Shown piece by piece: positions 4,250 through 33,943 of a stretch of DNA of 64,000 bases. A model generated the notes under the pieces. It saw only the letters and a list, made by a program, of their open reading frames with translations, searched no databases and was not told the origin of the DNA. The position numbers were made by a program, and so were the translations under genes. The DNA lies in contig OZ361256.1 of the NCBI GenBank assembly GCA_977018835.1, positions 5,332,001-5,396,000 on the forward strand, in the 5' to 3' direction. This stretch comes from Minutocellus sp. GHC0000111. Its lineage: Eukaryota. Position 1 is the stretch's first letter. Each line of letters starts with the position of its first letter.

Positions 4250-7233
4250 ATGCGACCATACTTTGTGGTTCGTAATACGCGCAATTCCGGGCACTCGGGT
4301 GGTCAAAGTAGGGAAGATTGCCGTTCAACTGCCACCTTTGAAGCTTTGCCAGGACAAGAGTACAAAGAAGGCGTTGTCATTGCTTTTTCTGCCAAGAGTT
4401 GTGGTGCAGCAAAAGATGCGCTACATGTAGTACATGAGGGTGTTCCTAGTAGTACTGATGAATCTACCGAGACGGGTGAAAATAGTGTTGAAATCGAAAC
4501 CATAAACATCATTCCCGACTCTGTTGTCCCAATCATGCCAAAAGTTCAGCTTCGGAGCAATAAAGGTTCTCTTTGTCTTTCTTTTTCTCTAGACGATGGA
4601 ACGGATTTGAGCATATTCAACTCTACTAGTGCTGGCATTCGCGACGAATACAAAGGAATCGCTGAGGGAGATGGGACTCAACCTACCGAAACATTCAGCT
4701 TTGCCAGGGCGGCTTATCCGCATTTGCTGCATTTTTGTCGTCTTACAAATCAAACAGCTAATCTACCCGCCCATAGTCAGAACCACGATTATAAAATCAA
4801 CGGAGACAGCAACCCATCCGCTTCACAATACATACCAATCGACGCTCGATGCATTGAGACATTGAGTTCATTGACTGTGGAAGCATCTGTAGCTCTTGGC
4901 ACGGAGTCAGTTCGCAACGCTCACATCTATGATGATATCTCCTTTGCTGACCTTCACAGCATGGTACGAACAGTCCAAAAGCAAATCCCCATGGCCATTC
5001 CCGATCATGGACGTCTGGATCTAAATCAGTTCCTTGCATTCTCATGTCTACTGGAACAGCGTGTTGCATACGAAAGGGATGCAGCACCCCGGCTATCTGT
5101 CCGTGTACTAGAAAGATTTGATTCATCAATTCGTATTGTTGTATCCTCGTCCAACAAGGTGTGTCGCATTGCAGCAAATGTTCGTCCAATAGCAGCGATT
5201 GACAGTAATGACTCTAGACCACAAATTCAAACTAGTGTCGGAATTGCCAAAGCAAAGGAAGGAATCGTTGAGCTGAATGGCCTTGACGAAAACACTGAAT
5301 ATGAAATCGAAATTATCGGCTGTTGTCCTCTGAGTAGAAGTTCTTCAAAGAGAAGGATTGTTGTCAAGACGAAACTGTCCTCAAATGTTGAACCAGAGCT
5401 GTATCCTTTGTGGGATGATATGAGCAGAAACGACCAAGAGACGGAATTGCTCGCCGTGATAAAGGATCGAGCTATACGTAATCTTGCGGCAATGGAGAGA
5501 ATTTCAATAGATTCGATCGGTTTGACTCCAAATAGAGACAGTTCAGAAGACGCAAGAGGGCATTTCGCTCTTTGGTGGAGCCAAAATGACCGAGTGAGAA
5601 AAGACTTTTGTCTTCGAGAGGCGCAGCATGCATCAAAAGACCACACCATTCGAGAATCGGCCAAGAAGGAAGGCATTCTTATCAAGAATAGAGACTGGGA
5701 AACGACTGATCCTGCTGCCTTGCGTCGACGAAAGCGGTTCTGTTGGTGGTACTACGAGATCGATACAACGAAGAGGGACGGTGTAGCAAGTCATCACGGG
5801 CAAGATGGAAACGAGAGGAAGGAAGACAGCGGCGCCCCATTTGAGGTTGCCATTTCTCAGGCGTCCCTCGACTTTTTGCCACCTCAGATACCAAGCCGGC
5901 ATGAAACTGACCAAGTACTAGCAAAGTTGACACAGCAGACTCATCCAAAAAAAGCAGAGATGTATCACAGAAAGCCGAAGGCAGACCAAGAAATGGCATC
6001 AGTAGCAAATGATTTCGTCATATCAAACCGATCTGAAATTGCCGATGCTCTGCGTCCAGTATACGAGCTAGAGCGTAGATCGCCGGGAAAAGCGGATGTA
6101 TCCAAGGATCATACCAAGCATTCGGAAAAAGAATCTACCGCATCGAAGCAAGGCCAAGCGCCAGCAAGGCCAACAATCAGTCCTGAAAATGCTAATGACA
6201 CAAACATTTCTAATCTCAATGCTCAAGTTGACGCTAGCAGCAATAGTCCAAATATAATTATTCAAACCAAGGGAAGTGATCAAATCCGACCGACGGCGTC
6301 AACCAAAGAAGCCAACATGAGCATGAATGTCGAGCCCAAGTCGACAAACGATCAAGCAATGTATCCTTCTGCCGCTGAAATGACAGCACCTGATCCCACG
6401 AGCAGCCCACAGAAACCCTCTCAACGCAGTAAGAGAAGTACTTTCCTCGGCACCCAAACTGCAAAGACGGAAAAGACCGTTGGTGAGGTAGACAAAATGC
6501 TAGCATTCCAGAAAAGAGCAAACAACTCCGTGGCGTTGCACTCCTCAAAGCAAAGGTCAGACTCGTAATGATAACTGCTCGTCTTCAAGCTCTCCGAGAA
6601 AAGTCAGGATGCAAACATGATGCGTCAGCGCTAGACCATGTGGATTTGTTTGATAATGATGACGGCGACGAGGAGAACGACATCGAGCAGTCCTCCCATG
6701 GTGTTGAAAACAAAGTAGAGACAAAACCGCAGAGTGCGATTCCAACATGTAGGCCACCCATGCCGACAGTCGTAGACAATCACGAAATGCCACCCACCGA
6801 AGAAGACTCAAACGGCAAGTACACCAAGCCCCAGTCATTATTGGCAAATATTTACCAACATAACGTCACTCGTGGCAAAAGGCATGCCATCCAATCATGG
6901 AGGTTTTACGTCAATCAAGAGAAGAAATCCGAATCGCACCTGGTCGAATGCGATCGATCGAATGCACCAAGTGCATCGGCTGATACCTCTCTGACAGATG
7001 AAAATACAACGATGAGCCCACAAGCACTAGTGTCGCCCAGACGGGAAGGAATAAATGCAGTCGACCAAGCGGACGAATCTACGCTCAACCTGGATGAACG
7101 GCAAAGCAAAACAGTGGATGAAGATGATGCATGTGCCAGCACATCATCAATGGAACCCAGTGCATCAATCGATTCTCCGTTTGAACTGGTTAGCAATATA
7201 TCTCCTGCCGCTTCTGAATCCGTAGGGGCGGTG
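4250..7233 (+). pseudogene. Large hypothetical gene with an FN3-like segment; frameshift near 6565; interrupted by the mariner element
   Basis: 772-aa and 264-aa ORFs abut at 6568. VELNGLDENTEYEIEI resembles FN3. The frame runs into the left TIR at 7234. Confidence 0.5.
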
Positions 7234-7280
7234 CGAGGTCGCGGACAGCAGTTTCAGGGACCCGGTTTTCGGGTCTTTGG
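7234..7280 (+). repeat. Left terminal inverted repeat
   Basis: cgaggtcgcggacagcagtttcagggacccggttttcgggtctttgg matches the reverse complement of 10843-10890 with about 6 differences. Confidence 0.85.
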
Positions 7281-7813
7281 GCAAAATCTCATAAAAATCA
7301 GCACAAACGCACGCAGCAAGCAGCATTTATTTGTTATCGTCCTGTCTTCAAGATGGCGGTGACGGCAGTGCCGACGGCATCCGCTTCACGCAAGGGATAA
7401 GCGTGGTATCTCCAGAACGGGTTGGTCCTTGACCTTGGACCGACTCGGAGATATCGATTTCATCTTCCCATGCCAGCGTCTGGCCGATTCACCCCATCCA
7501 TCGCCCCTCCCTACTTCTGCCAGTTTTTCCGATGACAACCGGTCACCTCCTCCACCTCCCGACCCCACCACCACCTCCCAAATGCATTGATTCAAGTAGC
7601 CATATGGTTTGAGCTCCGATATCGGTCTCCATGGTCCCCATAATGGCGCATCTTATGCGGTCCGGGTGACCCCGCGCCAAAATCGAGCGGGCCAAAAAAA
7701 TCATCACCCGCCCGGCGCGCCCGCAACTCAATGAAACCTTCCTCATTTCCAACCCACCCGACATACAAACTGTTGCTCTACTGCCACAAAATACTGCATC
7801 CAACACCATATTA

Positions 7814-9456
7814 ATGCAAATGGCTGTTACTACTGCTGCCACCGCAGCTGATGCGCCAGCATGTCGCCGCTCCCGTCGGTCCGGCAGCTCCATCCCATGC
7901 TTTGATCATTTTGTCCATCGGAGCGGCACCATCGATGCCTCTACGATTCGTGGCAAGTCTCCTGGGATGATCCAGACCATAGCGAACCGGGCATGGGCGG
8001 GCCTCTCACTTCAGAAACAGCAGGATGTTGTGGAGCAAGCCCGAGAGGAGGAGCTGTGCTGTCCGAGCCAGACCGGTCCTGATCCGGCACAAGATGTGCC
8101 GATTTCTCAAATTCAAATTGCTCGGCGCAATTCGTCATCCAACAACGCCGATGCCAGCCCTGAGCCGACGGTCGAGGACAATGCTGGTGTCGCTGCTCGT
8201 CCTGGTGATGACAATGTCGAAGCTGGGGGCATCGCCGAGTCCATGGTGGTGGATGGAAGCGGAAACAGTGAAGAATCTGGCAATCCTGCCAGTGTCGGTG
8301 TTTCTGCTACCGGCACCGCCAATTCTGGTGGATCGACCGAGGAGAATTTGGATGTGCTGCTGGTTAAGGCCGAAGCGCAACACAAAGCTGCAGAGGAGGC
8401 TTTGAAAGGGCTAAGGGACACCTTGAAACGAGAAAAGCGGAAGGATGAAAAGGCCATGGCCGATGCCGAGAAGAAAAGGAACAAAATGAAGGATGAGAAC
8501 GGCAATTTACCGAATGGAAAGAAGCGAGTTCTCCTCGTGCATTACGATGAGAAATGGTTCTGGGGTCTCGTCCTCCGAGCTTTTGCGAAGGCTTGCGAGG
8601 AAATCGGCGTGAAAAAGCGAGATTACGCGGCCTTTCACAGGAGCCACATCAACAAGGTCATGGCCATTGCATTTGTTGCCGCTGTCTTTGTCGGTTCTCT
8701 TGAGAGTGGGTGCGAGGTTGTAAAACTGCCACTGGTACGAGCTCAAGCTCCTAAAATAGCGGAGTGAGCTCAGTGCGAAGCAGTGTCACAGCCTGATGGT
8801 TCAACACGGCACCCAAATACCAACCCCGATGGGACACCAAAGGAACCTCTTCGCCGGAAAGGAGAGTCGTTTCTTGTTGATTGTTGCGTTAATGGATCGA
8901 ACGAAGGCACCAAAAAGGATCCGAAATGCTCTTTGCTCCTCGTATTCAAGGAGACTATTTTCCCAGCGATTCTCAACCTTGTCGGTCCGGGCAAGCAATG
9001 CGAAGATTGCCATGTTATTTCCAGGGCGACCAGGCCGGGCCTCATGAGGACGGAACCTTCACGCAATTTGTTGCTAACTTCTGTGCTGAGCAAGGCTGGA
9101 CGTGGCAGCCACAGGCACCGCAGATGCCTCACGCCAACGTCCTTGACTTGAGCGTGTTCCCCGCGATGAGCCGGCGGCACTCGGAATGGGCACGAAAAAT
9201 GGTAGGCACCTCCGTCATTTCCACCGACCAGATCTGGGACACTGCCGAGGACGTTTACGATAGCATGCCTAACTGCAAAATTGCTTCGGCCTTCATTCAG
9301 TACTGGAGGATAATGGGCCTGGTGATTAAGGCCGGTGGTAGCAATGAGTTTGTTGGAAGGTTGGGTGACGAAAACTTGCACACTGGAATTAGGATCGACT
9401 TCAACGAAACGGCCAAGGGGATGGAGCCCTCAGCTCGTCATCCTTCTAAAAAATAG
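7814..9456 (+). pseudogene. Mariner-like transposase (DD38D) with an internal stop at 8765-8767 and a frameshift near 9019
   Basis: VHYDEKWF ... FQGDQAGPH ... QAPQMPHANVLDLSVF correspond to the HIDEKWF / QQDNARPH / PPNSPDLNVLDL motifs of plant- and oomycete-type mariners. Confidence 0.85.
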
Positions 9457-9501
9457 ATAGTGTTAATGTCTTTACACATGCATTAAATAAATGTTACACG
9501 T

Positions 9502-10608
9502 CTACAAATTATTTATAGATCTACATGCAAGATGCAGCAGCATTGGTTTGTTTATGTCACGGTTGGGCTTCTTTGTTCTTCTATTTCTACCGGTATTCTT
9601 TTTTGCCTCCTTGGCCTTCTTATGATCATTAGAAAGCCACACAGCGTGGAGGGACTGACAAATCTTTCCGCGCTTCACACCATATGCATCGGCAAGTTTA
9701 TTGTCAGTGAGGGCAGGGTGAGCAGTTGGTTGTTTACTCCCATCCTCATATCCCAACTTATATGCATCTAATGCAATCTTGTCAGTAGATAATGCAATAG
9801 AGAATTCTATTGTCTTGTTATCATACAATCCGAGTTCTCTGCTTCTCCACCCTTTCGGGTAGGCACCACGACCCTCTCTTGCTTGGCGATCGACTTCGAT
9901 CATGCCTAGCACTGTGGTGACCGCGACCTCGCTACCCCAACCAGGAACTTGTTTGAAGGGGAGGTAGACCCCTTTCTCTTTTCTTCTTGGTTCGGGCCTC
10001 TGACTACATGTGGGTGACTTGTAGTTCTTTATATCTTGTGGTAGTGGTGCTTCTCCGTACGTCAAAAAGCACGCAAGCCTCCGATGTTCCTCAACCTCTC
10101 GTTCAATCTGTCGTTCGGTTGGTTCGGTTGGAGGCAAGGGCTCCAAGATGGTAGGGGATGACAATTGAAGGTTGCTGAACGACGGGCATGAGCGGCTTGG
10201 GGTAAGAGCATACTGAGTATGAACTGACATTGGACTTGTTACCATGGGCGTGGCGGAGGGAAGGTCGAATGAGCTCACGGGCTTTCTCCTCTCGCCGCTT
10301 GGCTTTGCGTCGGCGGTTGCTATGCTCATCTCTGAGAATGAATCATCTTCATCAGAATGAGATGAAACGGTAGCGGTACCGCGAAAGTCGGCACGCAATG
10401 TGTCATGATGCAAGTACTTCCTTGCTTGGGCTTGTTCGGCGGCGAAGCCATCCTCTTCGTTGTGCTCGCGTCGATATTTCAACACACGAGGAGATGTGAG
10501 GTCTGACGATGCCGGTGGGACCCCTTGGTTGTCCTCCTCGTCATCGTTGTCCTTGTTCTCTCGACACCGCGGATGTTCCGGCGTTTTCGTTGGAAGTTTC
10601 CTTCTCAT
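9502..10608 (-). CDS. Unknown 368-aa ORF inside the transposon, convergent with the transposase
   Basis: Uninterrupted ORF lying wholly between the TIRs; no motif recognised. Confidence 0.55.
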   Translation of the reverse strand: MRRKLPTKTPEHPRCRENKDNDDEEDNQGVPPASSDLTSPRVLKYRREHNEEDGFAAEQAQARKYLHHDTLRADFRGTATVSSHSDEDDSFSEMSIATADAKPSGERRKPVSSFDLPSATPMVTSPMSVHTQYALTPSRSCPSFSNLQLSSPTILEPLPPTEPTERQIEREVEEHRRLACFLTYGEAPLPQDIKNYKSPTCSQRPEPRRKEKGVYLPFKQVPGWGSEVAVTTVLGMIEVDRQAREGRGAYPKGWRSRELGLYDNKTIEFSIALSTDKIALDAYKLGYEDGSKQPTAHPALTDNKLADAYGVKRGKICQSLHAVWLSNDHKKAKEAKKNTGRNRRTKKPNRDINKPMLLHLACRSINNL

Positions 10609-10842
10609 GGCGCGAGGGGCTGAATGCAGTCGCCTCGGCGCGTTTCGGTGGACGCGGTGGACTGAAGATGTGTCCCTTTGGAGTATCCATTTGCATGGAA
10701 GCTTCTTGAAGCGCCAGTCGGCAGAAGTTGCCCAGTCTATTTGTGGTAATTGCTTGGAGGTCGGTTGTTGACGGATGTGTTTTGATTTGCTTGCTTTGCC
10801 GCGTGTTTTTCAAGGTGCGCGCAAACCGCCGTGTCGGAAAGT

Positions 10843-10890
10843 CCAAAGACCCAAAAAACCGGGTCCCCGAAATTGCTGTCCCGGACCTCG
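10843..10890 (-). repeat. Right terminal inverted repeat
   Basis: Reverse complement reads cgaggtccgggacagcaatttcggggacccggttttttgggtctttgg; followed by TA at 10891. Confidence 0.85.
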
Positions 10891-10900
10891 TACCTAGGTA

Positions 10901-11171: not shown

Positions 11172-12000
11172 CTAAAGCTTGGATGGTCGGTCCAAAATCG
11201 ATTTCGATGGTAAAACAAATCCAGCTGGTTTCAACACTTGATGCAGAATTGGCCTTAGAACGATGGCGGTTAGGCCCCATATTTTCCCCTTACCATCGCC
11301 GTTGGGGAGAGGGAAAACCGGTCCCATCGTCCCCAATCGCTTTAGTTCCTCTGCTGTTTCTCCTTCCAGCAACTTGGCCACGCTCACTGCAAAAACCTCG
11401 TCAACTTCACCTGGATTGCCAGGGAAGATATGACGAACCGCATCATGCGATGGGATATCTCGAGTCAGTCAATGCGCCTACGATGGGGGTTACCATATTC
11501 CCGGTGACTGCAGGGACGGGCCCGGTCTGGTCAAGAATTTCCATATCCTCGTCGAAATCATAAGCAGCGTCAGGGTCATGGATGATCAGCGCATCGTGTC
11601 CCAAAAGCTCCTCCTTTGTTTCTCGGATGGCCGTCACGACGGAATCCTCTCGTTCCTCACCGATGCAGTCGGCATGTCCGCCAGGGAAGCTAATCTGGCC
11701 AGCGTGAGAGCTCAATGTCGCGGAGCGGAGGGTGAAAAGGATGGAAGGTTCGTTGTCGACGGTGCATAGTGGCACCAGCACTGCAGCAGGTCGTCGTTTC
11801 CTCACCGGTTTGCCATCCTCTGCCCTCTTGATGTTCACATCCGCTCCGTCATTCGAAGGGATCGTTCCATCTGGGCTTCTGTTAGGATTGACAAATAATC
11901 TGGGAGAAAGGAATTTAGGATCCGGCGGATCCTGGGGATCGAGGAGTTGATTGTGGTGGAGGGCTGGAGGCGCTGGAGGGGAGGAGGTGGTGCCATCATG
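11172..12000 (-). CDS. Nudix hydrolase, CoA-diphosphatase (NUDT7/8-like); apparent frameshifts near 11466 and 11836; start uncertain
   Basis: AAVLVPL, LFTLRSATLSSHAGQISFPGG, AIRETKEE, NPGEVDEVF, IWGLTA. Confidence 0.8.
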
Positions 12001-12359
12001 GTCATGATGGTGCTTCGCTCTGCTCCGCTGGGATGGGAAAATGGCCGGCCAAAATGCTGAAGTCTGGCTGACTACTAGTCTGTGCTTCGCCCGTCATCGA
12101 AAGCGCCAGCAGCACAACATGCAACAAGCCTGCATCGCTTTGATGGACCGTTTTTTTGTGACTGTTTTGGTGGGTCTGTGGTCTGTGCCCATTCTTGACA
12201 TTCAGCGAAAGATAAGAACGAATTGAAGTGTTCCTCCTCGCTCCTTTCCTGCAGCACGTTACATTTGCGCCATCTTCATTCTTTCAGCGAATAGCATCTC
12301 CCTCGTTGTGGGCAAGTAGGCGGGTCTACAATCGTTTATTGATTGTTGTCAAGTAAAAG

Positions 12360-14770
12360 ATGCGCTTCTCCTCTCGCACCGTCGTCGTGCTCCTGCTGGG
12401 AGGTATCGCCGGGACAGCATCGGCCGGATCCTGCCCCACTCAAGTCGCGGTGACCTTCAAGGCCTGCGTCGCGGGAATCAATTCCTACGATAAGTTCAGT
12501 TCGGCGGTGGAATCCGTAAAATCCGGTACTACCGTTTGCTTCGAACCCTTCAAGATTGCCAAGCCCGCCAGTGCTTCCCCGGTCACCATCGAGGGGGAGG
12601 ACGTCCGCATCGCCTGCAAGGTTCCCGGTAGCTGCCACATCGATGGGCTTGGAACACACATTCAAATTGAGGGCACGGATACGTCGGCTACTGTCCAGGG
12701 ATTTTATTTTACGGGTGCCGATGACAACGCCATCCAAGTCCGCAAGGACGCCGGAAGTCGAGCCGGCGGAAAGGAACAGAACATATGCAATTGCCGCTTT
12801 GAGGGGTGAGTGCTTTTCGAATATAATATTGTGAATCGAACTTGTGTGAAATAATTTACTCATCCGCTCCATTCCCTCTGCACTATTATTGACTTCTCTC
12901 TCTCTGCAGCAACAATTCCAACAACAAGGGTGCTGCCATCAAGTTCATGGAGAATAGCAAATCGTACGTCGAGGATTGCGACTTTCGCGAAAATGTCAGC
13001 GAAGCTGCCGGTGGTGCCATTTTCATTACTGGCGCCGAAGTTGAGGTTGTGGACTCGTACTTTGCCGACAACTCCGCCCAAAGTGGAGGCGCCATCTCTG
13101 TCGAGAACGACGGCGAATACGAAAGTGACTTCACCATGTCCGGATGTGAATTCACGGGCAACACAGCCCGAGGACGCGGGCCGGCAGTCTACATTGATGG
13201 CAGGGACGGCGGTGATCCCTACACGGACGGAGGAAACAATGCTGGTGACGACAATAGGCTGGACAGCGGCAACCGAGGCAGTCAGTGGGACTGCAATGGC
13301 GTAAACTTTCTCACCACAAGGAAGTGCGACAAGTTCGACTCGACCAATGTCAAGGTACGACCCGCCTTCAACGATAATGGCGGTGGTGGCACCAGCACGC
13401 CGAAGGTTGAAGATGACAGCGTCCCTGTTGTAAAGCCAAATGACTCTATTTGGCTCGGTAATCGACCCACTGTTCCCGCGCCAAGGCCAACGAATGCTCC
13501 ACCGACCAACAAGCCTTTCATCCCCAACTTCACATCGAGCACTCAAAACGGTGATATCCGTGATTCCGCCATCCCAGCTTCCGAGGTACCAAGGAACCCA
13601 GGCAGGGGCTACTTCAACTTTGATATCAATGACAAAGACTACGGACCGAACGCATGGGACGACGTGCATGCCAAATCAACTGACGAGTATGCGTATTGGA
13701 AGGAATACGACGAAAATCTAAAGCCCGACCTCACAGATAATTACTGCAGTCCAAAGAACAACAAGAGAGCATCTCCGATCGATCTAAACGAGAAAGTTAT
13801 CAACGAGGTTTGCCTAGAATACCATGAAATTCGGGACAAGCCTGGAGAATTCGGCCTGACAGATTCCAGAGTTGACATCGAAATTCTCAAGGACAGACTG
13901 CGTATTCAGTGGCCCAAGAGTGGCTGGTGGGACAATATCCGTGGGCCCAGTGCGGACATTCCAAAAGGGTGGGGCCACCATTTCCCGATCACCCATGCAG
14001 AGCTTGTTATGCCCTCTGCCCATACCCTCAACGGCAAACGATTCGCTGCTGAGTGGCAAATTTGGCTGATGACCGACCGCGGACGGGGCACACCTGCCAT
14101 CTCCATGCTCGTTGATATTGACGAGGTCAATCAGCGCGATAATTGGTACTTCGAGCAGGCCATCACTGCCTGGCAGGACAAATTTGATGAGAATCGGGAG
14201 CAGTGCCGACGAAAAATGCGTGGATTGCGTACAAACGATGGCAAGGGAGGAGGGGGGTCTCAAACGACAAGACTTCTCCTCGCTCCTGACGCTCCCGAGG
14301 GAGAAGAGGACTTGTTTGATTATGACTTCATGACGGCCATGAAGGGCGAAAAGGCTGCAAATGATGCTGAGCGAAAACTACAATCGAGAGCCTGGAACCC
14401 TTTCCACCCTAACACGATGCGTTCAATCTGGTTTTGGGGATACGAGGGATCGACACTCAATCCTCCCTGCTATCCTTTCGTCGAATGGCGCATCATCGAG
14501 AAGCCCTTCACCATCTCGCCCAAGCAGCACAATCAGTTGAAGAATATCCTATTCAACAATGTGGACAGCAACTGTGAGCCTACCAGCATCCACGCTGAGG
14601 GTGGTATTTCTGTCCCTCCTAGAGTTGGTGACAGGGGACAGAGTGTCCACAAGTGCGACTGCTTTGACTTTCTCAGCGATGCTTTCCGCAAACAGAACCC
14701 CCGAATTCGCGATTGTTCTGACTTTAAGAGAAATGAGAGACCATCCTGGGCTATTGACGATGGAAAGTAA
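12360..14770 (+). CDS. Secreted protein: pectin-lyase/Pmp-like beta-helix repeats plus alpha-carbonic-anhydrase-like domain; intron 12806-12909
   Basis: Signal peptide; FxxN/GGAI repeats; SPIDL, PSAHTLNGKRFAAE, YEGSTLNPPC, VEW. The GT-AG intron restores the frame. Confidence 0.85.
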
Positions 14771-15068: not shown

Positions 15069-15248
15069 TGCGGCGCCGTGCACAAAGTATGGGCGCGCCC
15101 CATTCTTTAGAGTCCTCCCGCCGTACGCCAATGAAGAGATCTCTAATTTTACCTTGACACTTGGACTCTTATGAGGGGACCTCCTCTCTTTATCACACGG
15201 CCCCCGTACGGCTACGGCACGCAAAAAAACTGCAATGCGCGCAGAACT
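15069..15248 (-). repeat. ~180-bp dispersed repeat, copy 1
   Basis: Reverse complement aligns to 26459-26637. Confidence 0.85.
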
Positions 15249-24641: not shown

Positions 24642-25157
24642 ATTAGTTGCTTCTGTTCCATTCGATGTGCAAGTTCTCGTTTATCTTTGCCGGAGAGAGA
24701 GCAGAGGAGGTTGCATCTATCGTATCGATCGGCCTGGCTGATGCGATGAGCCGAGCGAGCGGCCGAGCCAGTGACGTTCGATCCTGACGACGAAAAGACC
24801 TGGCTGAGAAGTGCGTAGCACGTGCTCGTGTTTCCCCTGCGTGCGTCGAGGATGCCGCGGCCGCGCGCGCGGCGGCGGCAAACAAAATTCGAAAATTTGG
24901 CGCCACTCGGCCCGCGCTGTGTGAGATGCGGCGGTAATTGTTGCTGCTGCTGTCAACAAGCACCTAGGTGAGCTCTTTTGACAACCGGTCTTGATCGTGC
25001 TCGTCTTCGATCTGCCCCCTTGACACCCACGTCGACATCTTTTCATGTTGTCAGCGCCAGTCGTCTCTTGCACAGCTTGCTAGCACGTTGTCCCCGTCAT
25101 TCTTGCTTCCAGTCCAAACATCCTAACACATCACATCGACATCGACACATCGACACC

Positions 25158-25775
25158 ACGACTCGCCTGTTCACCTTCGTTGTCGTCGTCGCTCTTCTTG
25201 GCGCGACGAACCTTCCCACCACTCAAGCCAAGATCGACTGTGAGTCCATGGCCAAGACTAACCTCAACGAAGCCAAGAGTCTTGCCCGCAACGCCGCCGA
25301 CGAGGCCACTCAAAAGGCCAACGCCAAGGCCGCCGAAGCCAAGGCGCTCCTTGAGGAGTCGCCTGCCAAGGCCAAGGACGTCGCCAACAAGAGCGTGGCG
25401 GCCGCCAAGGAGTTGGCCTCCAAGGCCAAGACCGAGGCCTTGCAGGTCCAAAAGGGTGCTGCCAAACATGCCGCCGAGCTGCAGAAGGAGGCCAAGGAAC
25501 AGGCCGACGCTCTCCTGCGCGACTCCAAGAGTCTCGACGCCGACTCCCTCGAGGCGGCCAAGAAGAAGGCTGCGCAGCTCAAGGATCGCGCCAAGGTCAA
25601 GGCGTCGGCCCTGATGGACGATGCCAAGGTCAAGGCCGCATCTCTCAAGGAGGATGCCAAGAGCGCCGTGGCGAACGCCAAGCGGGAACTCAAGGACTCG
25701 TCCTCGGGTGGAGGAGGGTTTGGTGGGACCTTTGACAAGTTCAAGGGCCTGTTTGATGCTGGAAGAGAGCTGTGG
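25158..25775 (+). pseudogene. LEA-like Ala/Lys helical-repeat protein with signal peptide; start and stop appear mutated
   Basis: AK-rich helical repeats. Signal-like TRLFTFVVVVALLGA is preceded by ACG. ...GREL is followed by TGG and then UTR-like sequence. Confidence 0.6.
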
Positions 25776-26458
25776 ACAAGACAACTAGATGCGACAGGGA
25801 GCAGATCACACGTGCAACACATGTGTGCAGACTTGAAAATCCGGATGACCACTAAATGAGAGAGAGAAGATGTGTGCGCTGCCTGGCTGCATCTTTGTGG
25901 CAACTTGCGTGCCAAGAAACAACAACAACAAACTGCTAATAGATCTAATTGACTAAAAGATTGCAAACAGAGCAAAAGGACAAAGCGTCACATGACGCAA
26001 TGGAAAAATTAACTCATGGATGGATTGCTCAGAAGAGTGCCATGTTTGCCCATGTTCCCTTTATTGAACTCTTGAAACATGTGGGTGACGGCAACGAAGA
26101 TTAAAGATGGGATCCAATGCAGCCACGAACACGCCAATTCGTTTTTACATCACCGAAGTGAAAGCAGTGCTGGCAGAGGGGGATTTGCAGATTGAAAAGA
26201 GACATTGCTAAAACAGCGCATGATTTACAAATAGGTGTGCTATCAAGCATTCACTAGTCACTCAATGCGTTTAACTGGTGCATGCATTGGTTGGCTTGGA
26301 GCACTTTGTCATGCAGCAATGCGTTGCAATTTATGGGCATTTTGTCAGTGGTCGTTGGAGAGCAAATCGAGTCCTTTTCCTTCTTTTTCTCTCCTTCTCT
26401 CTTTTCTCTTTTGCGAAATCAAAAATTGACCCCCCGCGCCGCACGAAAACATGTTCGA

Positions 26459-26637
26459 ACTCTGCGCGCATTGCAGTTTTTTTGCTTGCCGTGGCCGCAC
26501 GGGGGCCGTGTTATGAAGAGAGGAGGTCCCCTCACAAGAGTCCTAGTCTCAAGGCAAAGTTAGAGATCTGTTTGTGGACGCACGGCGGGAGGACTCTTAA
26601 CAATGGGGCGCGCCTGCACTTTGTGCACGGCACCGCA
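26459..26637 (+). repeat. ~180-bp dispersed repeat, copy 2 (TA-depleted)
   Basis: Inverted copy of 15069-15248. Confidence 0.85.
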
Positions 26638-26688
26638 CGGCTGCGGCGAGGAAAAACCCTGCGTTGCGCGCAGCAGAGAATGTGCCGC

Positions 26689-26756
26689 GATGATGCATCG
26701 AACACAGCACCTCCCTCCGCTGATTCTCCCAACTCTATGCAACTTAGTAGAACATG
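26689..26756. repeat. Split direct repeat B2
   Basis: Direct copy of 27010-27080. Confidence 0.9.
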
Positions 26757-26772
26757 GCGGTTTGAGGGAATT

Positions 26773-27009
26773 TAAAACTAACTAACTGCTGAGAGAGAGA
26801 GAGACAGGCTCTGGGAGCCGGCACTGCAAGCTCTGACTTAGCAATTGCAACGGCAGCAATCGCAGATGGTTGGTTGTGGCTTGGTCAGTTGAGACGAGAG
26901 GAGGCGAAGGTGGTGGTCAGCAGAAAAACTGGGCACTGCAGGAATGCAGTTTTAGTGCCTGCTGCTAACCACCGTCGCCAGCTCATCCCCACCGTGCGGT
27001 GCCCACAAC
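26773..27009. repeat. Split direct repeat A2
   Basis: Direct copy of 33625-33853 with 5 substitutions and short indels. Confidence 0.95.
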
Positions 27010-27080
27010 GATGACGCATCGAACACAGTGCTGCCTCCCTCCGCTGATTCTCCCAACTCTGTGCAACTTAGCAGAACATG
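27010..27080. repeat. Split direct repeat B1
   Basis: Abuts A2, reproducing the circle-junction sequence. Confidence 0.9.
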
Positions 27081-28487
27081 AAATGCAGTTTAACTACGTG
27101 AACTGGAGCTGGCATTGGCGGTAAATGAAACTTCTTAGAGGGTGAGGTCCCTCTCCCCCTCCTCCTTTCCGCAGCACAGATCGGCCAACAATGTGTGTCG
27201 TGCTTAGGTGAACAGGGCGAAGGGGGGCATTGGAGTCCCCCGAAGCCGGCATTTCGGCCAATGCTGTTGATGCCGGCGGAGGATTGGCGGCAATTTGGGG
27301 TCCTTGGGTCTTCGCGATGGCTCGTCGAGTGTGCGTGGGGCACGTTGAAGAAGGAACCTCGTTGGATCATGCGTGTGGAGACTCCGGATGTAAATTCTTG
27401 GACCTGGCGACGGATGTGCTTGAGGAAGGCGTCACTGGACCACCGCCCTGCCAGCATGGTTGTGTGCGTGGGAACATCATCATTTAGTTGCATTGCCATT
27501 GCTGCTCCGCTGCGAATGGAGCGTGATCCGAATTCAGAGGGATGGCAGCCCAGGACGTCCTCTCCAATCACTGTGGCCGACGCTCGGATCTTGTCAACTG
27601 TTCGGGTGGCAGGAATGTGTTTTAACACGCCGTTGACCACGAAGGCATTTGCCGGCGTGTCGCTGTTGGTGCTAGGGCACCCTAGGACTCGTTTCACCAG
27701 GGCAGCCCAAGCTCGAACTGGGCAGAGGGTGGTGTCGTGGGTGCAGTGTTGCGCAATTGTGACGTCACGCTCGTCGTTCTTCTGGAACTCAAAGGTGACG
27801 GAGACAGAGTCTGCTGAGAGGAGGGACCGGTCGTTGTGACACATGCGCCGTCGGCCGCGGCAGAACTGGATGTTGCGGAGGCGGAGCAGCTTGGTCCTGC
27901 GCTCACCGCTGCCTCTGGAGCATTCGCAAGACCTCATCGCGAAGAAGAAGGCGCCGACGGCTAGTTGCCCGACTGCACGGTCCTCTTCCGTTTCCCTGAC
28001 GGAGGCGATCTCTCGGAGGAGCCGGCAGGTGATCGCCTTCTCCGGCCGCTCGGCCGGCCGGGTCGGACTGGCTGTGTCCTCGGAACTGCCGCTGTAGAAG
28101 GAATGAAGGCTGGCCGATGTCGTCTTTCCCTGGGTCCCTGCGCTGGTTGTGCCGGAAGGACGAGCATGCACATGAGACGGCATCTCGGACTGTCGACGCA
28201 GCCAGTCGCGAAAACTTTGGCCCCGAAAAGCTGGCCTGTCGGACGGCGTGGGCAAAGGCGCCGAGAATGACTGTTCGGTCTCGGGGTGATGCCTTGTCGA
28301 GGAAGACGTCGTCCCCGGTCCCGATGAGCTGCAGGAACTCAGTCCAGCGGCTCCACGCGAGAGCGTGCTTCTCGGCAGTGGCCGTTGTAACTGCTTCCTG
28401 ACGGGCAGCGTCCGCGCCTGCGAGACAATCCAGGAAGCAATCTCGTTGGGCAGTGGTGCAATCCTGAAGTTTGAGGGAAGCTGACAT
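27068..28487 (-). pseudogene. Tyrosine recombinase; frameshift near 28055; catalytic Tyr replaced by His
   Basis: AFFFAMRSCE, FEFQKND, LCPVRAW, SIRSGAAMA, GRWSSDAFLK(H)IR. Confidence 0.9.
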
Positions 28488-30270
28488 TCGGGAGATGACA
28501 GAAGCAATTTCGTGAGGTCAGCATCAGAGAGATCGGTGTCACGAGAAAGAGAATCGGCCTCCGGATTGCGCTTCCCCTGGAACCGGATGAGGACCATCCG
28601 CCGATGCCGTGCTCGCAGGCGTCACTTATGTGCTCGTGGGTGGGGCAACGGCACGTGAGGAGGTTCATGCTCATGCCATCGGCGGCCCTTCGGAGGAAGC
28701 GGAGCCACAGGTTGAGGTCTTCTGCATCCTCAGAGTCGAACCGTTGGCGGCCGTGGCGGCGGGCCTTCCAGAGCCGATCCCGAAGGCGGCTGAGGAAGTG
28801 TCGTGCGGCTGGAGTGATGTGTCCGACGTGGTTTAGCCTTCCGACCAAGGTGTCCAGCTCTGATCTGGTGGCGCCGCGGGCTCTGAGGAGCCGAAGCATG
28901 TCATCATCGCGCCAGGCCAGGTGCTTGCTCCAAGGGAGCCTCAGCAGGAGCCGCCGGGTGTCAGCATCCCACCCCAAGAGACACAGCACTTCGGAAGGCG
29001 TCCCCTCGGCGAGCAGCTTCTTGATGGAGGCAAGGTCATCTCTGGGCAGTGGCTCGCTGTCGGACACCGGTCGGCCAAGCGCGTGGATGGCGAGGAGGGT
29101 GGCAGCGGACATCCGATCCTTGTTGTCGCCCAGGTCAGGGGCTGCGGCGATGAGGTCATCGATGTGCGGCTCGACGATGCCATCCTTGTTGTCGGGAAGG
29201 GTTACGATCATGTCCAGGGCCGGCGCGAACGGCACATCGTCGCCCTCCACCTTGGGGCGACCCAAGTGCTTCTGCTGGGGGCCATGGAGCTCTGACGGGT
29301 CCCAGTCCGAGCATTGCAGGAGGGCCCTGGCCAGGTCGGCCGCCGATTCGGACATGTTGCACCATTCGCTCGGGCAAGGGCGGCCGCCGAAAGTCAGCCG
29401 GAGGGACATGAGGGCAATGCCATCCAGGGTGGTGATCGTTTTGACGGCCGTGCTGGGAGCCAAGTGGGCCCGGCGATGCGCAGCCTTGAAATCAACCTTC
29501 TGCAGGAGGATGGGAGCACGGGGATGCTTGTGACGGGCGTCTGCGATGTAGTGGATCACTCGCCGGAGGGCATGGCCGAACACCACTGGCTGGTGGTCCT
29601 CCATGCGCACTCTGTTGTTGACGGACCGTGCGGCACCGATCTCGAAGGATTGGTCGTGAGTCAGGCGGTCCTTGGGCATGATCTCGCCAGAGCCTCGCTG
29701 ATCGTGTTCTGTGCTACCAAACCCATCGGAGCCACCTCCGCTCCAGGAATGAGGGGCGCGACCTTTGCTGGCAGAGGGAGGGCGAAACCGCGGGTCACGT
29801 CGTCGAGAACTTGGTCCTTGAGTGCCTCCGGCCTGTCCCTGGCCGATTTGTGGTTGCCTCGGCCGATGTTCTTTATCACGCTGTCCAGTCTGCTTTCGTC
29901 GCTCACCGGATCGAGGGCCCAGTCGGATCCACTGTCGAGAATGGATGGAGCGGAAGTGGGGCCACAGCGGGTGCCGGCCAAGAATCGGCTCCAGAAGACT
30001 CAGGTCTCTGAACTCCGATCCCGGTTGGAGTGGCGACCCGCCCTGCGCCTCGAGTGCCCTGCTCAGAGAACGATCGTGTTTCTTGAGGACCGACCAATTG
30101 TGAGCGGCGGCCTCCGTCAAGAGCTCAAATCTGAACTCCGTGGGCTTCGGTGTGGCCGACGGGGACTCGACTGCTCGTCGGACGCACTGTGCCAAGGTGG
30201 AAACATCGAAGATGGGCTCTAGTTCCCACGTGGAATTGCACAAGGCGAGGAAAAGGTGAGACATGCACAT
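28480..30270 (-). pseudogene. Reverse transcriptase / RNase H; frameshifts; RNase H core deleted near 28590
   Basis: KDRLTHDQSF, KVDFKAA(H)RR, LRLTFGGRPCP, (H)IDD, LLGW. SDACEHGIGG is joined directly to GKRNPEADSLSR. Confidence 0.9.
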
Positions 30271-30874
30271 GCTGCACGTTCACGAGCATGCGGGTCTGTC
30301 CGACCGTGGTGGGCCCATTGTGGGCGCTGGGCTGCCCCGTTTGTTGTAGGTGTTTCTTCACCTGTTGGTCTCACTTACCATTTTGGCGCATCGGTTCTGC
30401 TTCCTTGCTGTGCGCAGGGGAACCAGGGGGAGACTGTGCTTCGGGTTGGGGCTGCTTGCCTAGGAGATCCTTCTCTCGCTGGCCTAGCCGGTCGAAGAGG
30501 TTGTCGGTGGCTTCCGCACCGCCAGCGTTAGTGGTGCTGGAGCCAGAGCCTGAGATGCTGTTGTCGGCGCAGGCATCACCGCTGGTGTTAGGGGGACCAG
30601 GACCCGACCGAAGGTCACTGCTAACGCCTCGGCCTTCTGCTCCGGTGTTAGGGGCACCGGAGAGCCTGGATTGGTTGCTGATGTCGTTGCGACCGCACAC
30701 GCCGGATTTTGGGGCACCGGATGACCTTGGGCGGCTGGAGCCACCGGGGCGGATCGACGCCGACGCATCTGGCTGCACTCGACGGCGCTTGGAGGGACGA
30801 GCTCGGCCGGCTGGCCGAGATGTTTCTCCAGCATCCTCCGAGGGTGGGCCACGCCTCCGTGCCCACCCGATCCG

Positions 30875-33616
30875 TCATTCCTCCGCCTCCTCGTGCTTCC
30901 GATCGCGTTTCTCGACGTGCTGCTCGACGGGTCCTCTCTCCGATGCCTTAAGAGGCCTCTTGACATGCGACTTCTTGAGCTCACTCGAGGATCCGGCGCC
31001 GCAGACACCTGTCAGGATGAATGGAGGGCAGAGTTTACAGCCATTAATTTCAGGTCTGTCCTCACAGGGCTCGGATTTCTTGCCATGCCGTTTTGCAAAG
31101 TTGCCGGGGTTGATGTCGAACGTGATGAAGTGTTCGCACTGGTGGGCTCTGCCGCTGGCGCCGCCCGTCTTTTGCTTCTTTTTCGGACTGGTTCTTGGCT
31201 CTGATTTGTCGGAGTCGGAATCCGAGGAAGGGGTGGGAGCGTCGGCCGATTGGACGAGCTTGATGTGGCTGGGGTAGACGAAAGGATTCTGAGTCTTCAT
31301 TGTCTTTTTGGACTCGTCGGCCATTGAGAAGCAAGAGAGGTCGTTGCCGGCGTCGTCGGGGGAACGGAGACAAGCTTTCCAGAGTGCATGCATGGATAGA
31401 GGCGTCGACATTGTGGAACATCGCCAGCCAGAACTTCTCGCCATGGCTCTCGGCGATGTCGCGGTGCTGGTCCTCGTGTGTCTTCATGTGACTGAGGACC
31501 CTGGCGACGCAGCGAGCGGGCTCGGAATCCTCTCCGGCAAGGAAGGAAATGCCAGCGCCGAAGGCCGAGATGAGACGTTTGGCACCGTCGTGCTCGGTTG
31601 GGGACCGGTAGTTCTGCTTCAGAAGAGCCTTCACCTGAGTCGAGGTGTGTCCTTTCTTTTGAGAGGCGGCGAGGCACAGGGGCGCATTGCTGCTGCTGGA
31701 GTTTACCGGGCCAAAGGCGAAGACAGAGAAGCCATCGCAGATTTTCTTGTCGCTCTTCCCGAAGCCAAAGAGGCGGACGTAAGTGAGGCCCTGGAGAGAT
31801 GTCCTGACTCCGGTCTTGCCCTTTACATGCAGCTCGAGGCCGACGGCTGCTTGCGTGAGGTTTGACTCTTCCAGCAGTGCTTTCAATCCTTCGGGAAGAT
31901 TCGAGTCGATCGCTGCTGCATCATCGTCATGCTCGGTCGAGACCCGGCAGAAAGCGGCACAGGCCTTGAGGATGGCGCCATTCATCGAGTGCTTCTTGTC
32001 GACCTTGTCAGTGCAGGCCATGACTGCGCCGGTGAGGGAGGATGCTTTGGACGCGGCCCTAGTCATGGCGTTGGCCGCGGCAGCAACTGCAGAGTCGGTC
32101 GGGGCGCCACCGGCTGGTGGTCCGTCGCCACTGGCGCCAGTGATGCACCGAGCGTGCATCTCACGGGCGCATGTCTTGAGAGCCGGTGACATCTCGCAGG
32201 CGGATAGGTGCCTCGAGATCGTCGGGGCGCCGGTGAATTGATGCTCTTGGCCAGACGCGGCAGTGGGTGCCCTCCCAGCGATTTGGATCGGCCGTGTCGT
32301 CTAGCCACCTCGGATAGACTCGATGGCAGGTGCCTACCCAGCGGTGTGAGGGGGACGCCGTTAGGTCTGCCAGCCTTCCCCAGCATTCGTACGGGTTGAC
32401 CTCCACTCGGTGTCCAAGAGGATTGCTGTCAGGCCGAGTGTGTCGGAGTCGAGCGCTGGTGAGGCTCTCGAATCCACTGTCCCAGTTGATAACAGCTTCA
32501 GTGAGTTGGTCCGGTCGTAGGTGCTGCCGTCTCTGGAACGGGTGCGGCGAATCCAGCGGGAACTGGGTGATCAGGGCGAAAGGGCCGATGAGATCTCCTC
32601 GCTCCAATCAATGCCACACTGACGCCAGCCCGCTCGGATCGGTCGTGTGCGTCACGTGGGTAGAAGAGTGGCCTTACCTCCCACTCGAAATAAGTGAGCG
32701 GCAGCGTTGGTGGAAGCTCGCTCCCCCGTGAACCTGTGCAAGCGCACGGTGTCGGCTCTAGAGGTCTGCCCTCTCTGGCCGCGATGCGCCGTCTTTCTTT
32801 TCGGTCGGCCTGGTAGTGGAGGATGCACTGCGTGAGCCGGCAGAGCTGGGGCCAGATGCAATGGTGTTGCCGCGCTGCTGCTACCGATGCCTCCGGACAC
32901 CTTCGCCCCCGATGCTGTTGAACCACGACGCCTCCGTCTGCCCGTGGTAGTCGGCACAGTGCACTGCTCAGGTCCAACTCAGTTGCCGTCTCGTGTGCCC
33001 GGCGGATCTCAGGCTCGGTAAGGCGCGTGGCTATCAGCCAGATGTTGACGAGGTACGTGGGCCAGTCCGGTGACACCAAGAAGGCTTGTTGCTCGAGGTA
33101 CTCGGCGACCAGACCGTGCGCTACTGGAGCAAGGTGTGAAACGGCTGCTGCTGGGGATGGCTGGCACCCCGTGGCTCTCGATGGGAGGTAGCAGCCTGTG
33201 GCGCGCTCGACGAGATCGGTGAGGCACTCGGTAACGTCGATTCGGCCCTCGGCAAAACTTTTCCACCAATCCAGTGCGTCTGTGGTCAGTCTCTCGGACG
33301 ACGCCCTGGCTGTGAAGAAACTTCTGCGCCCGGGCCGAATCTGACGTCTGAGTCTGTCCCAGCCTCGTGGAAGGTCAGGAGAGTCTCCTCTCGGACGATG
33401 AGGTCTCTTGCCACTCCGAACAACACGTGATCCAGTTCCGGTCGATCTGGTTCGGCCATGCACTGTTCTGCCGTCGCAGAGACTGGTATCGGATCTACGT
33501 GCACTATCAACGGAGCTGAGCCGTGGCCGTTTGACTCCGGAGTCGACTGCGGTCTCTGGACTAACAGCAGTGGTGGTGTGTCGGCCAACAATTACGAACT
33601 CGTAGAGTAGCACCAA
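30875..33616 (-). pseudogene. gag-like ORF1 region, fragmented by frameshifts
   Basis: Chain of overlapping minus-strand ORFs between A1 and RT, ending in a Cys cluster (CKLCPPFILTGVC). Assigned mainly by position. Confidence 0.6.
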
Positions 33617-33624
33617 CCTAATGC

Positions 33625-33853
33625 TAAAACTAACTAACTACTGAGAGAGAGAGACAGGCTCTGGGAGCCGGTACTGTAAGCTGACTTAGCAATTGCAACG
33701 GCAGCAATCGCAGATGGTTGTGGCTTGGTCAGTTGAGACGAGAGGAGGCGAAGGTGGTGGTCAGCAGAAAAACTGGGCACTACAGGAATGCAGTTTTAGT
33801 GCCTGCTGCTAACCACCGTCGCCAGCTCATCCCCACCGTGCGGTACCCACAAC
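33625..33853. repeat. Split direct repeat A1 (5' end of the element)
   Basis: Direct copy of 26773-27009 that retains its TA sites. Confidence 0.95.
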
Positions 33854-33943
33854 CACGCCAGCCAGGCGTCTCGATCGGCGCGTGATCGGCGCGCGGGCGG
33901 CGGCGGCGGCGGCATCGCATCGGTACTTGATACATCACGAACC

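What the first reader, a model, noticed from the sequence alone, without database searches (positions are those of the whole stretch)
24800..32200. Regional TpA>TpG/CpA (TAY>TGY) hypermutation centred on a retrotransposon: a possible reverse-polarity RIP-like defence system
Seen in sequence: (1) All 5 substitutions between A1 and A2 remove a TA in A2: ctact>ctgct, gtact>gcact, gtaag>gcaag, ctaca>ctgca, gtacc>gtgcc. Each reads TAC>TGC on one strand or the other. (2) B2 vs B1 adds ctatg>ctgtg and gtaga>gcaga. (3) The repeat copy at 26459 has lost about 6 TA sites that the copy at 15069 retains. (4) Hand count gives about 4 TA in 28141-29340 (1200 nt) versus about 12 in 33001-33600 (600 nt) of the same element. 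(5) Conserved Tyr codons have become His or Cys: RT YIDD>HIDD (29164-29166), AYRR>AHRR, YR catalytic YIR>HIR (27416-27418), RSCEY>RSCEC. Surviving TAs in A2 are mostly TAA/TTA. Established: fungal RIP is CpA>TpA, the opposite direction; CpG decay and single-strand RNA editing do not give both A>G and T>C at TA. Inference: A1 and A2 should start out identical, and flanking non-element DNA is also hit, so the changes arose in genomic DNA after insertion. One candidate is a chromatin-directed adenine deaminase or modifier; TAC is the context preferred by TadA-type deaminases.
Basis: partly seen in the sequence, partly recalled or inferred. Interest (0 to 1): 0.93.

Follow-up and report, generated by a model that had tools for sequence, protein, structure and literature searches.

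The report
TAY-to-TGY hypermutation of diatom transposons
In this probable diatom, dozens of copies of two unrelated transposon families, and likely 2 kb of host DNA beside one copy, have had the A of TAC/TAT changed to G on both strands, copy by copy and hundreds of times faster than other changes, which likely reflects a genome-defence mutator (possibly a natural DNA adenine deaminase, enzyme unidentified) working in the opposite direction to fungal RIP.

Summary
Confirmed and extended. No RTAY occurs in 24,723-32,388 (about 83 expected). Illumina contigs from other studies agree, so this is not a base-calling artefact.

Proteins from 54 family copies show it is family-wide. At ten inferred R-TAY tyrosine codons there are 160 His, 112 Cys, 5 Tyr and no Arg among 279 calls. 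Each copy has its own mosaic (235 of 256 site pairs four-gamete positive), so the changes came after insertion.

A Tc1-like DNA transposon in the same window shows the same spectrum, which argues against reverse transcription or RNA editing. Changes are pure transitions (TAY > RTAR > YTAR), about 670-fold over other A>G. They are not strand-clustered and CpG decay is minor. Small tandem duplications accompany them.

Best reading: a distributive, likely chromatin-directed adenine mutator, probably a deaminase (enzyme unidentified). It works like RIP but is not RIP. Earlier scan notes cite a 2026 Bigelowiella preprint with TpA hypermutation, which I could not read, and report the same signature in other diatom windows. 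So this is a variant of a barely described kind.

The parts
24723..32388 (.). Hypermutated zone: no RTAY site, single TAY sites strongly reduced, YTAR spared; fades over about 32.3-33.8 kb
24725..26460 (.). Single-copy host flank inside the zone: RTAY 0 vs 17.3 expected; RTGY+RCAY o/e 1.32 (1.73 in 25860-26460) vs 0.96 in background
   Evidence: single-copy depth, and contigs with 0 differences incl. Illumina X6 record 17 (24906-26053); ancestral state inferred from composition, not read
25248..25859 (+). Host ORF (Ala/Lys/Glu-rich, no Pfam hit) convergent with the element and inside the zone
26461..26637 (-). 177-bp dispersed repeat copy that has lost 7 of 7 TAY/RTA sites kept at 15069-15245
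   Evidence: other copies keep TA at 26555, 26570, 26581
26688..26759 (-). Terminal B repeat (3' end of the element)
   Evidence: joints and loose end
26773..27009 (-). A2 repeat: 5 TA-removing transitions and 3 insertions (2, 2, 4 nt) relative to A1
27009..27147 (-). Internal B repeat
   Evidence: 27009-27080; joints at 27139/27147
27239..28517 (-). Tyrosine recombinase, frameshifted; the Tyr that 10 of 10 relatives have in the YIR motif is His (27416-27418)
   Evidence: relatives match PF00589, 7 of 11 alignment members, best 4e-7
28196..30279 (-). RT-RNase H ORF, broken by small insertions and a deletion near 28583; AYRR>AHRR, YIDD>HIDD
   Evidence: a model of a 70%-identical relative matches retroelement RT structures, best E 5e-7
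30875..33637 (-). 5' ORFs of the element (gag-like by position only; no Pfam hit), broken
33625..33853 (-). A1 repeat (5' end of the element), largely unmutated
7230..10894 (+). Second element: Tc1/mariner-like DNA transposon with 52-bp inverted ends, broken transposase (7814-9456) and the same TAY>TGY spectrum at lower load
   Evidence: PF01498 on family member P0289
15069..15245 (+). Copy of the 177-bp repeat outside the zone that keeps its TA sites (internal control)

Best explanation
Transposon copies in this probable diatom genome carry A>G changes at TAY on both strands that differ from copy to copy, and the cause is likely a genome-defence mutator that acts on transposon chromatin after insertion, most likely by deaminating that adenine to inosine. 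Shown: pure transitions; context TAY > RTAR > YTAR; both strands; independent in each copy; two unrelated transposon classes; loss of conserved Tyr residues in RT and recombinase; no strand or per-copy clustering. Inferred: targeting is by a silenced chromatin domain, not by repeat pairing. The zone runs 2 kb downstream into single-copy DNA, through a convergent host gene up to a likely promoter region, and fades in the element's repeated 5' end. Hits accumulate singly over many cell generations, and each hit destroys the opposite-strand target. Guessed: the enzyme is a TadA/ADAT-fold or other zinc deaminase, with inosine fixed as G at replication. The 2-4 bp duplications would come from nick or break repair in the same chromatin.
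For: RTAY-free 7667 bp. A1/A2 5 of 5 and repeat 7 of 7. Family Tyr tally H160/C112/Y5/R0/other 2 of 279. None of 38 proteins covering both RT motifs keeps both Tyr. Four-gamete 235 of 256, and only 11 of 256 pairs linked at p<0.05. Tc1 family, using only sites the window still holds: 16 of 20 TAY sites hit vs 31 of 483 non-TA adenines, Fisher p=9e-15. Transversions at TA 0 of 484 and 1 of 2763; per-site rates in the YR family YTAY 55/124, RTAR 12/86, YTAR 1/59. AAN contexts at background. About 670-fold over non-TA A>G at 44/14651. CpG decay only 3.6-fold over other G>A in the YR family and absent in Tc1. Illumina contigs of two other studies lack TA at the same sites and match the flank. Controls keep Tyr and RTAY: 33 loci, 110 homologs, 143 of 150 representatives with no C/H at four conserved Tyr columns.
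Against: No enzyme was found: no whole genome is held and no deaminase domain appeared among the window frames scanned. Sequence cannot tell an adenine lesion from a thymine lesion. A 2020 review states that no natural DNA adenosine deaminase is known (PMC7481536, passage). The duplications do not sit at TAY sites (11 within 8 bp vs 10.2 expected, p=0.45), so they do not support inosine excision as their cause. The flank's ancestral state rests on composition only. The family spectrum is read from predicted proteins, and YR ex-TA sites were called from polymorphism, which inflates the TAY rates; the Tc1 and tests avoid this. A crude adjacency test showed slight same-strand excess (338 vs 311+/-12) that vanished after control for site bias (p=0.68 and 0.145).
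Confidence: 0.5

Rival explanations
1. A silencing mark that miscodes. A modifying enzyme marks T or A of RTA/TAY in transposon chromatin (for example TET/JBP-type thymine oxidation, or an adenine adduct), and the mark decays or mispairs to give T>C/A>G, as 5mC decays to T. Mutation is then a by-product of the mark.
For: Distributive, unclustered, equal load across copies of the RT core (p=0.44), as expected of chronic decay. Domain-like spread into the flank. Same end product as deamination. The enzyme classes are recalled, not from a call.
Against: About 670-fold is far above the 3.6-fold CpG decay in the same family and above typical 5mC decay (recalled). No modification data.
Confidence: 0.27
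2. Error-prone repair synthesis by a Y-family polymerase (eta or iota type) in transposon chromatin puts G opposite T after a TA step. Slippage or nick fill-in gives the small duplications.
For: Would explain both signatures: 31 of 34 in-frame insertion sites repeat a neighbouring residue, and 9 of 10 window-specific insertions checked are tandem 2-4 nt duplications. Pol eta favours WA motifs (recalled).
Against: AA contexts are at background (AAA 0/352, AAG 0/1130, AAC 3/607, AAT 2/324). Transversions at TA are 0/484 and 1/2763. No patch-like strand clustering.
Confidence: 0.12
3. True homology-triggered reverse RIP: repeat pairing in a sexual stage recruits the mutator, with leakage into flanks.
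For: Three repeated families are hit while genes are spared. [quoted passage not shown]
Against: The single-copy flank has 0 of 17 expected RTAY while the repeated 5' 1.5 kb keeps 6 of 11 expected. The repeat copy at 15069 is unmutated. No same-strand clusters, whereas a section heading of PMC7296669 describes RIP mutations as clustered on one strand; many cycles could blur this.
Confidence: 0.08
4. RNA editing or RT infidelity during retrotransposition, inherited by daughter copies.
For: The load is higher in the retroelement than in the DNA transposon.
Against: The Tc1-like DNA transposon has the same spectrum. Both strands are hit equally (345 vs 346). Alleles are unlinked among copies. A1 and A2 differ, and the flank is depleted.
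Confidence: 0.02
5. Base-calling or assembly artefact at modified TAY sites.
For: The window's platform is unknown, and the library of run X1 is not on record.
Against: Illumina contigs X6 and X7 (other studies) show CA where the window has TG and the reverse, never TA, at 28290, 28537, 29065 and 30715. X6 matches 24906-26053 with 0 differences.
Confidence: 0.01

Closest known systems
TpA>TpG/CpA hypermutation of integrated giant-virus and virophage DNA in Bigelowiella natans (Mettrop et al., bioRxiv 2026; known to me only through unchecked earlier scan notes; paper not seen)
   Same: As summarised in those notes: A:T>G:C transitions restricted to TpA, on integrated foreign or selfish DNA, in genomic DNA, enzyme unknown.
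   Different: Here: a probable diatom (another supergroup); targets are a YR retrotransposon, a Tc1-like DNA transposon and a short repeat; clear TAY preference; spread into a host gene; tandem micro-duplications. Whether the preprint reports TAY preference, flank spread or an enzyme I could not check.
Repeat-induced point mutation (RIP; RID/DIM-2) of ascomycetes
   Same: Repeat-focused, context-specific transition hypermutation in genomic DNA that destroys transposon ORFs and leaks into flanks (PMC7296669, PMC5148876 passages).
   Different: RIP is C>T, mainly CpA>TpA, and creates TpA; this removes TpA. No same-strand clusters here. Homology and sexual-stage dependence are not shown.
TadA/ADAT2-3 tRNA deaminases and engineered adenine base editors
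   Same: A>I>G chemistry would give exactly these pure transitions; a 5'-T, 3'-pyrimidine preference is recalled for TadA derivatives.
   Different: Natural TadA/Tad2 edit tRNA (PMC3239186 passage); DNA activity had to be evolved in the lab (PMC7481536 passage). No such enzyme was identified here.
APOBEC editing of retrotransposons (PMC4866542, search listing and abstract start only)
   Same: Deaminase-type hypermutation restricting retroelements.
   Different: C>U on reverse-transcription intermediates, confined to retroelements; here A>G on both strands after insertion, including a DNA transposon.
Ngaro/DIRS tyrosine-recombinase retrotransposons (the host element)
   Same: RT-RNase H plus YR ORFs and split direct repeats A1-ORFs-B-A2-B (layout name recalled).
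   Different: Ordinary element class; only its mutation load is unusual.

Membership tests
Fungal RIP | C>T transitions, mainly CpA>TpA | tested here: not met
   The spectrum is A>G at TAY; G>A at TGN is 0-1 per 286-847 after site polarisation; TpA is depleted.
Fungal RIP | Concentrated on repeated DNA, with flank leakage | tested here: met
   Three repeat families hit; background keeps RTAY (minimum 5 per 1736-bp window among 512 windows).
Fungal RIP | Same-strand clusters from processive action | tested here: not met
   Strand correlation among 15 saturated sites p=0.68; multiple rounds could mask it.
Fungal RIP | Homology pairing, premeiotic timing, RID/DIM-2 dependence | not testable with these tools
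   Needs crosses and the genome.
Bigelowiella-type TpA hypermutation (features from earlier AI notes, paper not seen) | TpA>TpG/CpA transitions on both strands | tested here: met
Bigelowiella-type TpA hypermutation (features from earlier AI notes, paper not seen) | Acts on integrated foreign or selfish DNA after insertion and spares genes | tested here: met
   one adjacent host gene is inside the zone
Bigelowiella-type TpA hypermutation (features from earlier AI notes, paper not seen) | Ongoing in culture; same machinery | not testable with these tools
   No time series, no enzyme.
TadA/ADAT-type DNA deaminase activity | Pure A>G transitions with 5'-T context | tested here: met
   Transversions at TA 0/484 and 1/2763; non-TA A>G 44/14651. 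Compatible, not diagnostic.
TadA/ADAT-type DNA deaminase activity | A deaminase-fold gene, and inosine in DNA | not testable with these tools
   No genome held; none among the frames scanned in the window.
Ngaro/DIRS YR retrotransposon | Reverse transcriptase | tested here: met
   Model of relative P0127 (70% identical over the RT region) matches foamy-virus, CaMV and Ty3 RT structures, best E 5e-7; Pfam and PDB sequence searches gave nothing.
Ngaro/DIRS YR retrotransposon | Tyrosine recombinase | tested here: met
   40% identity to the L004 ORF; relatives match PF00589, one shown above the cut-off.
Ngaro/DIRS YR retrotransposon | Split direct repeats A1...B-A2-B | tested here: met
   layout name recalled
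Tc1/mariner DNA transposon (second element) | Terminal inverted repeats and a Tc3-type transposase | tested here: met
   52-bp inverted ends; PF01498 above the cut-off in P0289 and P0293; the window's own copy had no Pfam hit.

The most novel reading that the evidence does not exclude
This diatom has a dedicated, chromatin-guided DNA adenosine deaminase that edits TAY in genomic DNA of transposons: a natural adenine base editor and an adenine-based genome-defence pathway shared by distant algal lineages.
Probability: 0.4. Interest if true: 0.92.

Novelty: new variant of a known kind. Interest (0 to 1): 0.72.

Why it matters
Known targeted genome-defence mutators (RIP, APOBEC, 5mC decay) all act on cytosine. 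This one acts on A:T pairs, about 670-fold above background, and leaves no retrieved RT copy with both motif tyrosines. If it is a deaminase, it is the natural DNA adenosine deaminase that a 2020 review says is unknown, and a possible base-editing tool. If it is a miscoding mark, it is a new eukaryotic DNA modification. It would also distort transposon dating and GC content in diatom genomes, and could damage transgenes and neighbouring genes. This genome adds a young-family data set in which CpG decay is minor, and gives context, independence and non-processivity constraints for finding the enzyme.

Tried and rejected
No whole genome is held, so there was no genome-wide scan and no deaminase search. 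Pfam of 41 window frames found no deaminase. IMG/VR had no relative. Pfam and PDB sequence searches did not recognise the RT; the YR profile gave only weak Cre hits, E about 0.6, among GFP noise.

The idea that RTAY is a specially recognised palindrome was dropped: per-strand rates at RTAY (14/232) and YTAY (42/477) are similar in Tc1, so two targets per site suffice. Duplications at TAY sites: rejected. Strand-coordinated bursts and per-copy load differences: not supported.

Expression of the element: depth over flank is about 50-60-fold in both RNA runs and about 52-fold in X1, so DNA carry-over is not excluded and no expression is claimed. The second haplotype's flank alleles were not read beyond the rows, so the flank's ancestral state stays inferred.

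Spread to other species was not seen in 110 homologs, 33 loci, 3 relative clusters (Tyr 91/91, 33/33, 133/137) or 150 representatives. These sets favour intact or collapsed sequences, so absence is weak. One ORF line was in the wrong frame and is not used.

Ten literature searches (terms around A-to-G, hypermutation, TpA, transposable element, diatom, RIP-like, adenine deaminase) listed no report of this process. They also missed the Bigelowiella preprint, so they do not show that it is unpublished. UV TA photoproducts were considered from memory and rejected (transversions, not regional).
Full report
Setting. The window is gene-dense eukaryotic DNA. The gene at 33.9-35.7 kb has GHMP-kinase domains; its best named relatives are Thalassiosirales proteins at 45-46% identity, with unnamed relatives at 58-91%. 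I infer a diatom without a close named relative. No whole genome is held. The stretch is held by 20 of 22 listed runs from 8 studies; four were laid, two of them labelled sponge metagenome.

Observation. RTAY (GTAC, ATAC/GTAT, ATAT) is absent between 24722 and 32389, a gap of 7667 bp. The next largest gap in the window is 927 bp and the background is 10.9 per kb. In 25001-32000, ATA/TAT stands at 0.08 and GTA/TAC at 0.14 of the rest of the window, against CTA/TAG 0.58 and TAA/TTA 0.72. A1 vs A2 differ by five substitutions, all removing TA, and by three insertions in A2; all five TAY/RTA sites are lost and all six YTAR sites keep a TA. The 177-bp repeat at 26461 has lost all seven TAY/RTA sites that the 15069 copy keeps.

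The element. It reads on the minus strand as A1 - ORFs - B - A2 - B, the split-direct-repeat layout I recall for Ngaro-type elements. The RT is supported by a predicted model of a 70%-identical relative that matches retroelement RT structures. The recombinase is supported by PF00589 matches in 7 of 11 aligned sequences. Tyrosines conserved in relatives are His or Cys here, including the YIR tyrosine held by 10 of 10 relatives.

Not an artefact. In one search, Illumina contigs from two other studies show the opposite non-TA allele (CA for TG, or TG for CA) at 28290, 28537, 29065 and 30715, and X6 matches 24906-26053 without a difference. X1 may be the source sample and is not counted as independent. 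Only 40 of 139 substitution rows and 12 of 56 indel rows were shown. Of the 19 shown rows where the window has G or C against A or T, 11 restore a TAY/RTA directly and 4 are the two-way sites; the other 4 are not TAY. Five shown rows are CpG decay in the window.

Family-wide. I used 54 predicted proteins: 10 cluster representatives and 44 listed members, with only 15 of 31 listed for one cluster. They lie mostly on long ENA contigs, one of the same length as the contig of the window's own kinase gene, so I infer the same assembly. They hold 0-0.8% Tyr against 0.8-3% in 110 more distant homologs. At ten inferred R-TAY Tyr codons the tally is His 160, Cys 112, Tyr 5, other 2, Arg 0 of 279. None of 38 proteins covering both AYRR and YIDD keeps both tyrosines. 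Among 24 common biallelic sites, 235 of 256 pairs show all four gametes and 11 are linked at p<0.05, about chance; four protein pairs were identical. The copies were therefore mutated independently after insertion. Non-TA A>G is 44 of 14651, which implies roughly 670-fold acceleration per target adenine. Caveat: sites were polarised from polymorphism, which inflates the TAY rates. Using only TA sites that the window retains, the rates are YTAY 55/124, RTAR 12/86, YTAR 1/59, with transversions 0/484; these sites lean towards the less mutable.

A second class. A Tc1/mariner-like element with 52-bp inverted ends lies at 7230-10894. I took 100 of 127 retrieved proteins, leaving out 27 from more distant or short-contig clusters; 98 aligned. 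Sixteen of 20 retained TAY sites are mutated in at least one copy against 31 of 483 non-TA adenines (p=9e-15). At Tyr columns the tally is Tyr 281, His 65, Cys 36. YTAR is 0 of 325 apart from one site where all 47 other copies differ from the window. A DNA transposon has no RT step, so RNA editing and RT error are disfavoured. CpG decay is 3.6-fold in the YR family and absent in Tc1, so TAY loss is not a side effect of CpG decay.

Mode. Strands are hit equally (345 vs 346) and every well-covered copy carries both. A crude adjacency test gave a small same-strand excess (338 vs 311+/-12). With site bias controlled there is no strand correlation (p=0.68, adjacent p=0.145) and no per-copy load difference in the RT core (p=0.44). 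The process looks distributive and repeated, not a processive burst. The absence of Arg (CGY) fits a 5'-T requirement: one hit removes the partner target.

Targeting. The single-copy flank 24725-26460 has 0 RTAY against 17.3 expected; the products RTGY/RCAY are enriched (o/e 1.32, and 1.73 in the intergenic part, vs 0.96). The repeated 5' 1.5 kb keeps 6 of 11 expected. Family majorities keep TA at several places near both ends but not at the core sites shown. I infer a chromatin domain rather than strict repeat pairing. Here it extends downstream of the element's transcription, across a convergent host ORF, and stops between two divergent ORFs near 24.7 kb; read-through or convergent transcription may set it (inference). 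A second haplotype in X1 and X5 joins 25383 to 33859 and lacks the element and 1.3 kb of flank; its flank alleles were mostly not shown.

Second signature. Nine of ten window-specific insertions checked are tandem duplications of 2-4 nt. In-frame insertions in family proteins repeat a neighbouring residue at 17 of 18 and 14 of 16 sites. In-frame deletions not attributable to window insertions are rare: two events in the YR set and none in Tc1. The duplications are not near TAY sites (p=0.45), and whether they are transposon-specific is untested.

Other species. 33 related loci have RTAY o/e 0.37-0.85 vs 0.09 here. Of 150 best representatives, 143 have no C/H at four conserved Tyr columns and only this family's member has under 0.6% Tyr. 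These sets favour intact or collapsed copies.

Mechanism. The first choice is adenine deamination in silenced chromatin (0.5): pure transitions, a tight trinucleotide context and very high fold. Rivals are a miscoding T or A mark (0.27), an error-prone polymerase (0.12; AA contexts and transversions argue against), homology-triggered reverse RIP (0.08), RT/RNA editing (0.02) and artefact (0.01). The process itself is about 0.95 secure; the chemistry is open.

Literature. [quoted passage not shown] Other papers were seen as listings only, and no supplements were read. My ten searches found no report of this process. Earlier scan notes, which are unchecked AI text, describe the same signature with TAY preference in other diatom-like windows and cite a 2026 bioRxiv preprint (Mettrop et al.) on TpA hypermutation of integrated viral DNA in Bigelowiella natans. 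I could not obtain its identifier and have not seen it. This lowered my novelty call from categorically new to a new variant.

Verdict. Real, strong and targeted; works like RIP, is not RIP; enzyme unknown; interest 0.72.

Noticed in passing
window 7230-10894: Tc1/mariner-like transposon with a broken transposase and a second ORF on the minus strand (9502-10809). The left inverted end has GGTGC where the right has GGTAC. Load is higher in the 5' part of the transposase than in the 3' part, and chimeric family members exist (P0289 and P0296 clusters).
   Followed up: yes
window 25383 joined to 33859 (runs X1, X5): A second haplotype lacks 8475 bp: the whole element plus 1.3 kb including the 3' part of the host ORF, with 6 letters between. 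It could be a deletion that removed the insertion.
   Followed up: partly
window 25760-25780: The host ORF reads ...DAGREL then TGG and runs on into intergenic-looking sequence, and an upstream in-frame stretch looks like a signal peptide. The TGG may be a former TAG stop lost to the same process (speculation).
   Followed up: no
window 11543-12403: An 860-bp RTAY gap over a NUDIX gene, 650 bp from the Tc1 element. It is the only background locus besides the Tc1 gap with RTAY-free 600-bp windows; chance or spreading.
   Followed up: partly
element and Tc1 families: Frequent 2-4 bp tandem duplications with few deletions, not located at TAY sites; a possible second mutational process.
   Followed up: partly
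window 46975-52716 (minus): A 1914-aa frame with SET, cyclin-N and protein-kinase domains: an unusual chromatin/cell-cycle fusion or adjacent genes.
   Followed up: no
window 15069-15245 and 26461-26637: A 177-bp dispersed repeat, multi-copy by depth at 26544-26581; unclassified, possibly a MITE or a solo end.
   Followed up: partly
window 28583-28584: The window copy lacks about 285 bp of the RNase H region that other copies have.
   Followed up: partly
proteins P0135, P0159, P0617: Distant RT relatives with one or two Tyr>Cys/His changes at conserved columns but normal Tyr content; possibly light hits in other species.
   Followed up: no
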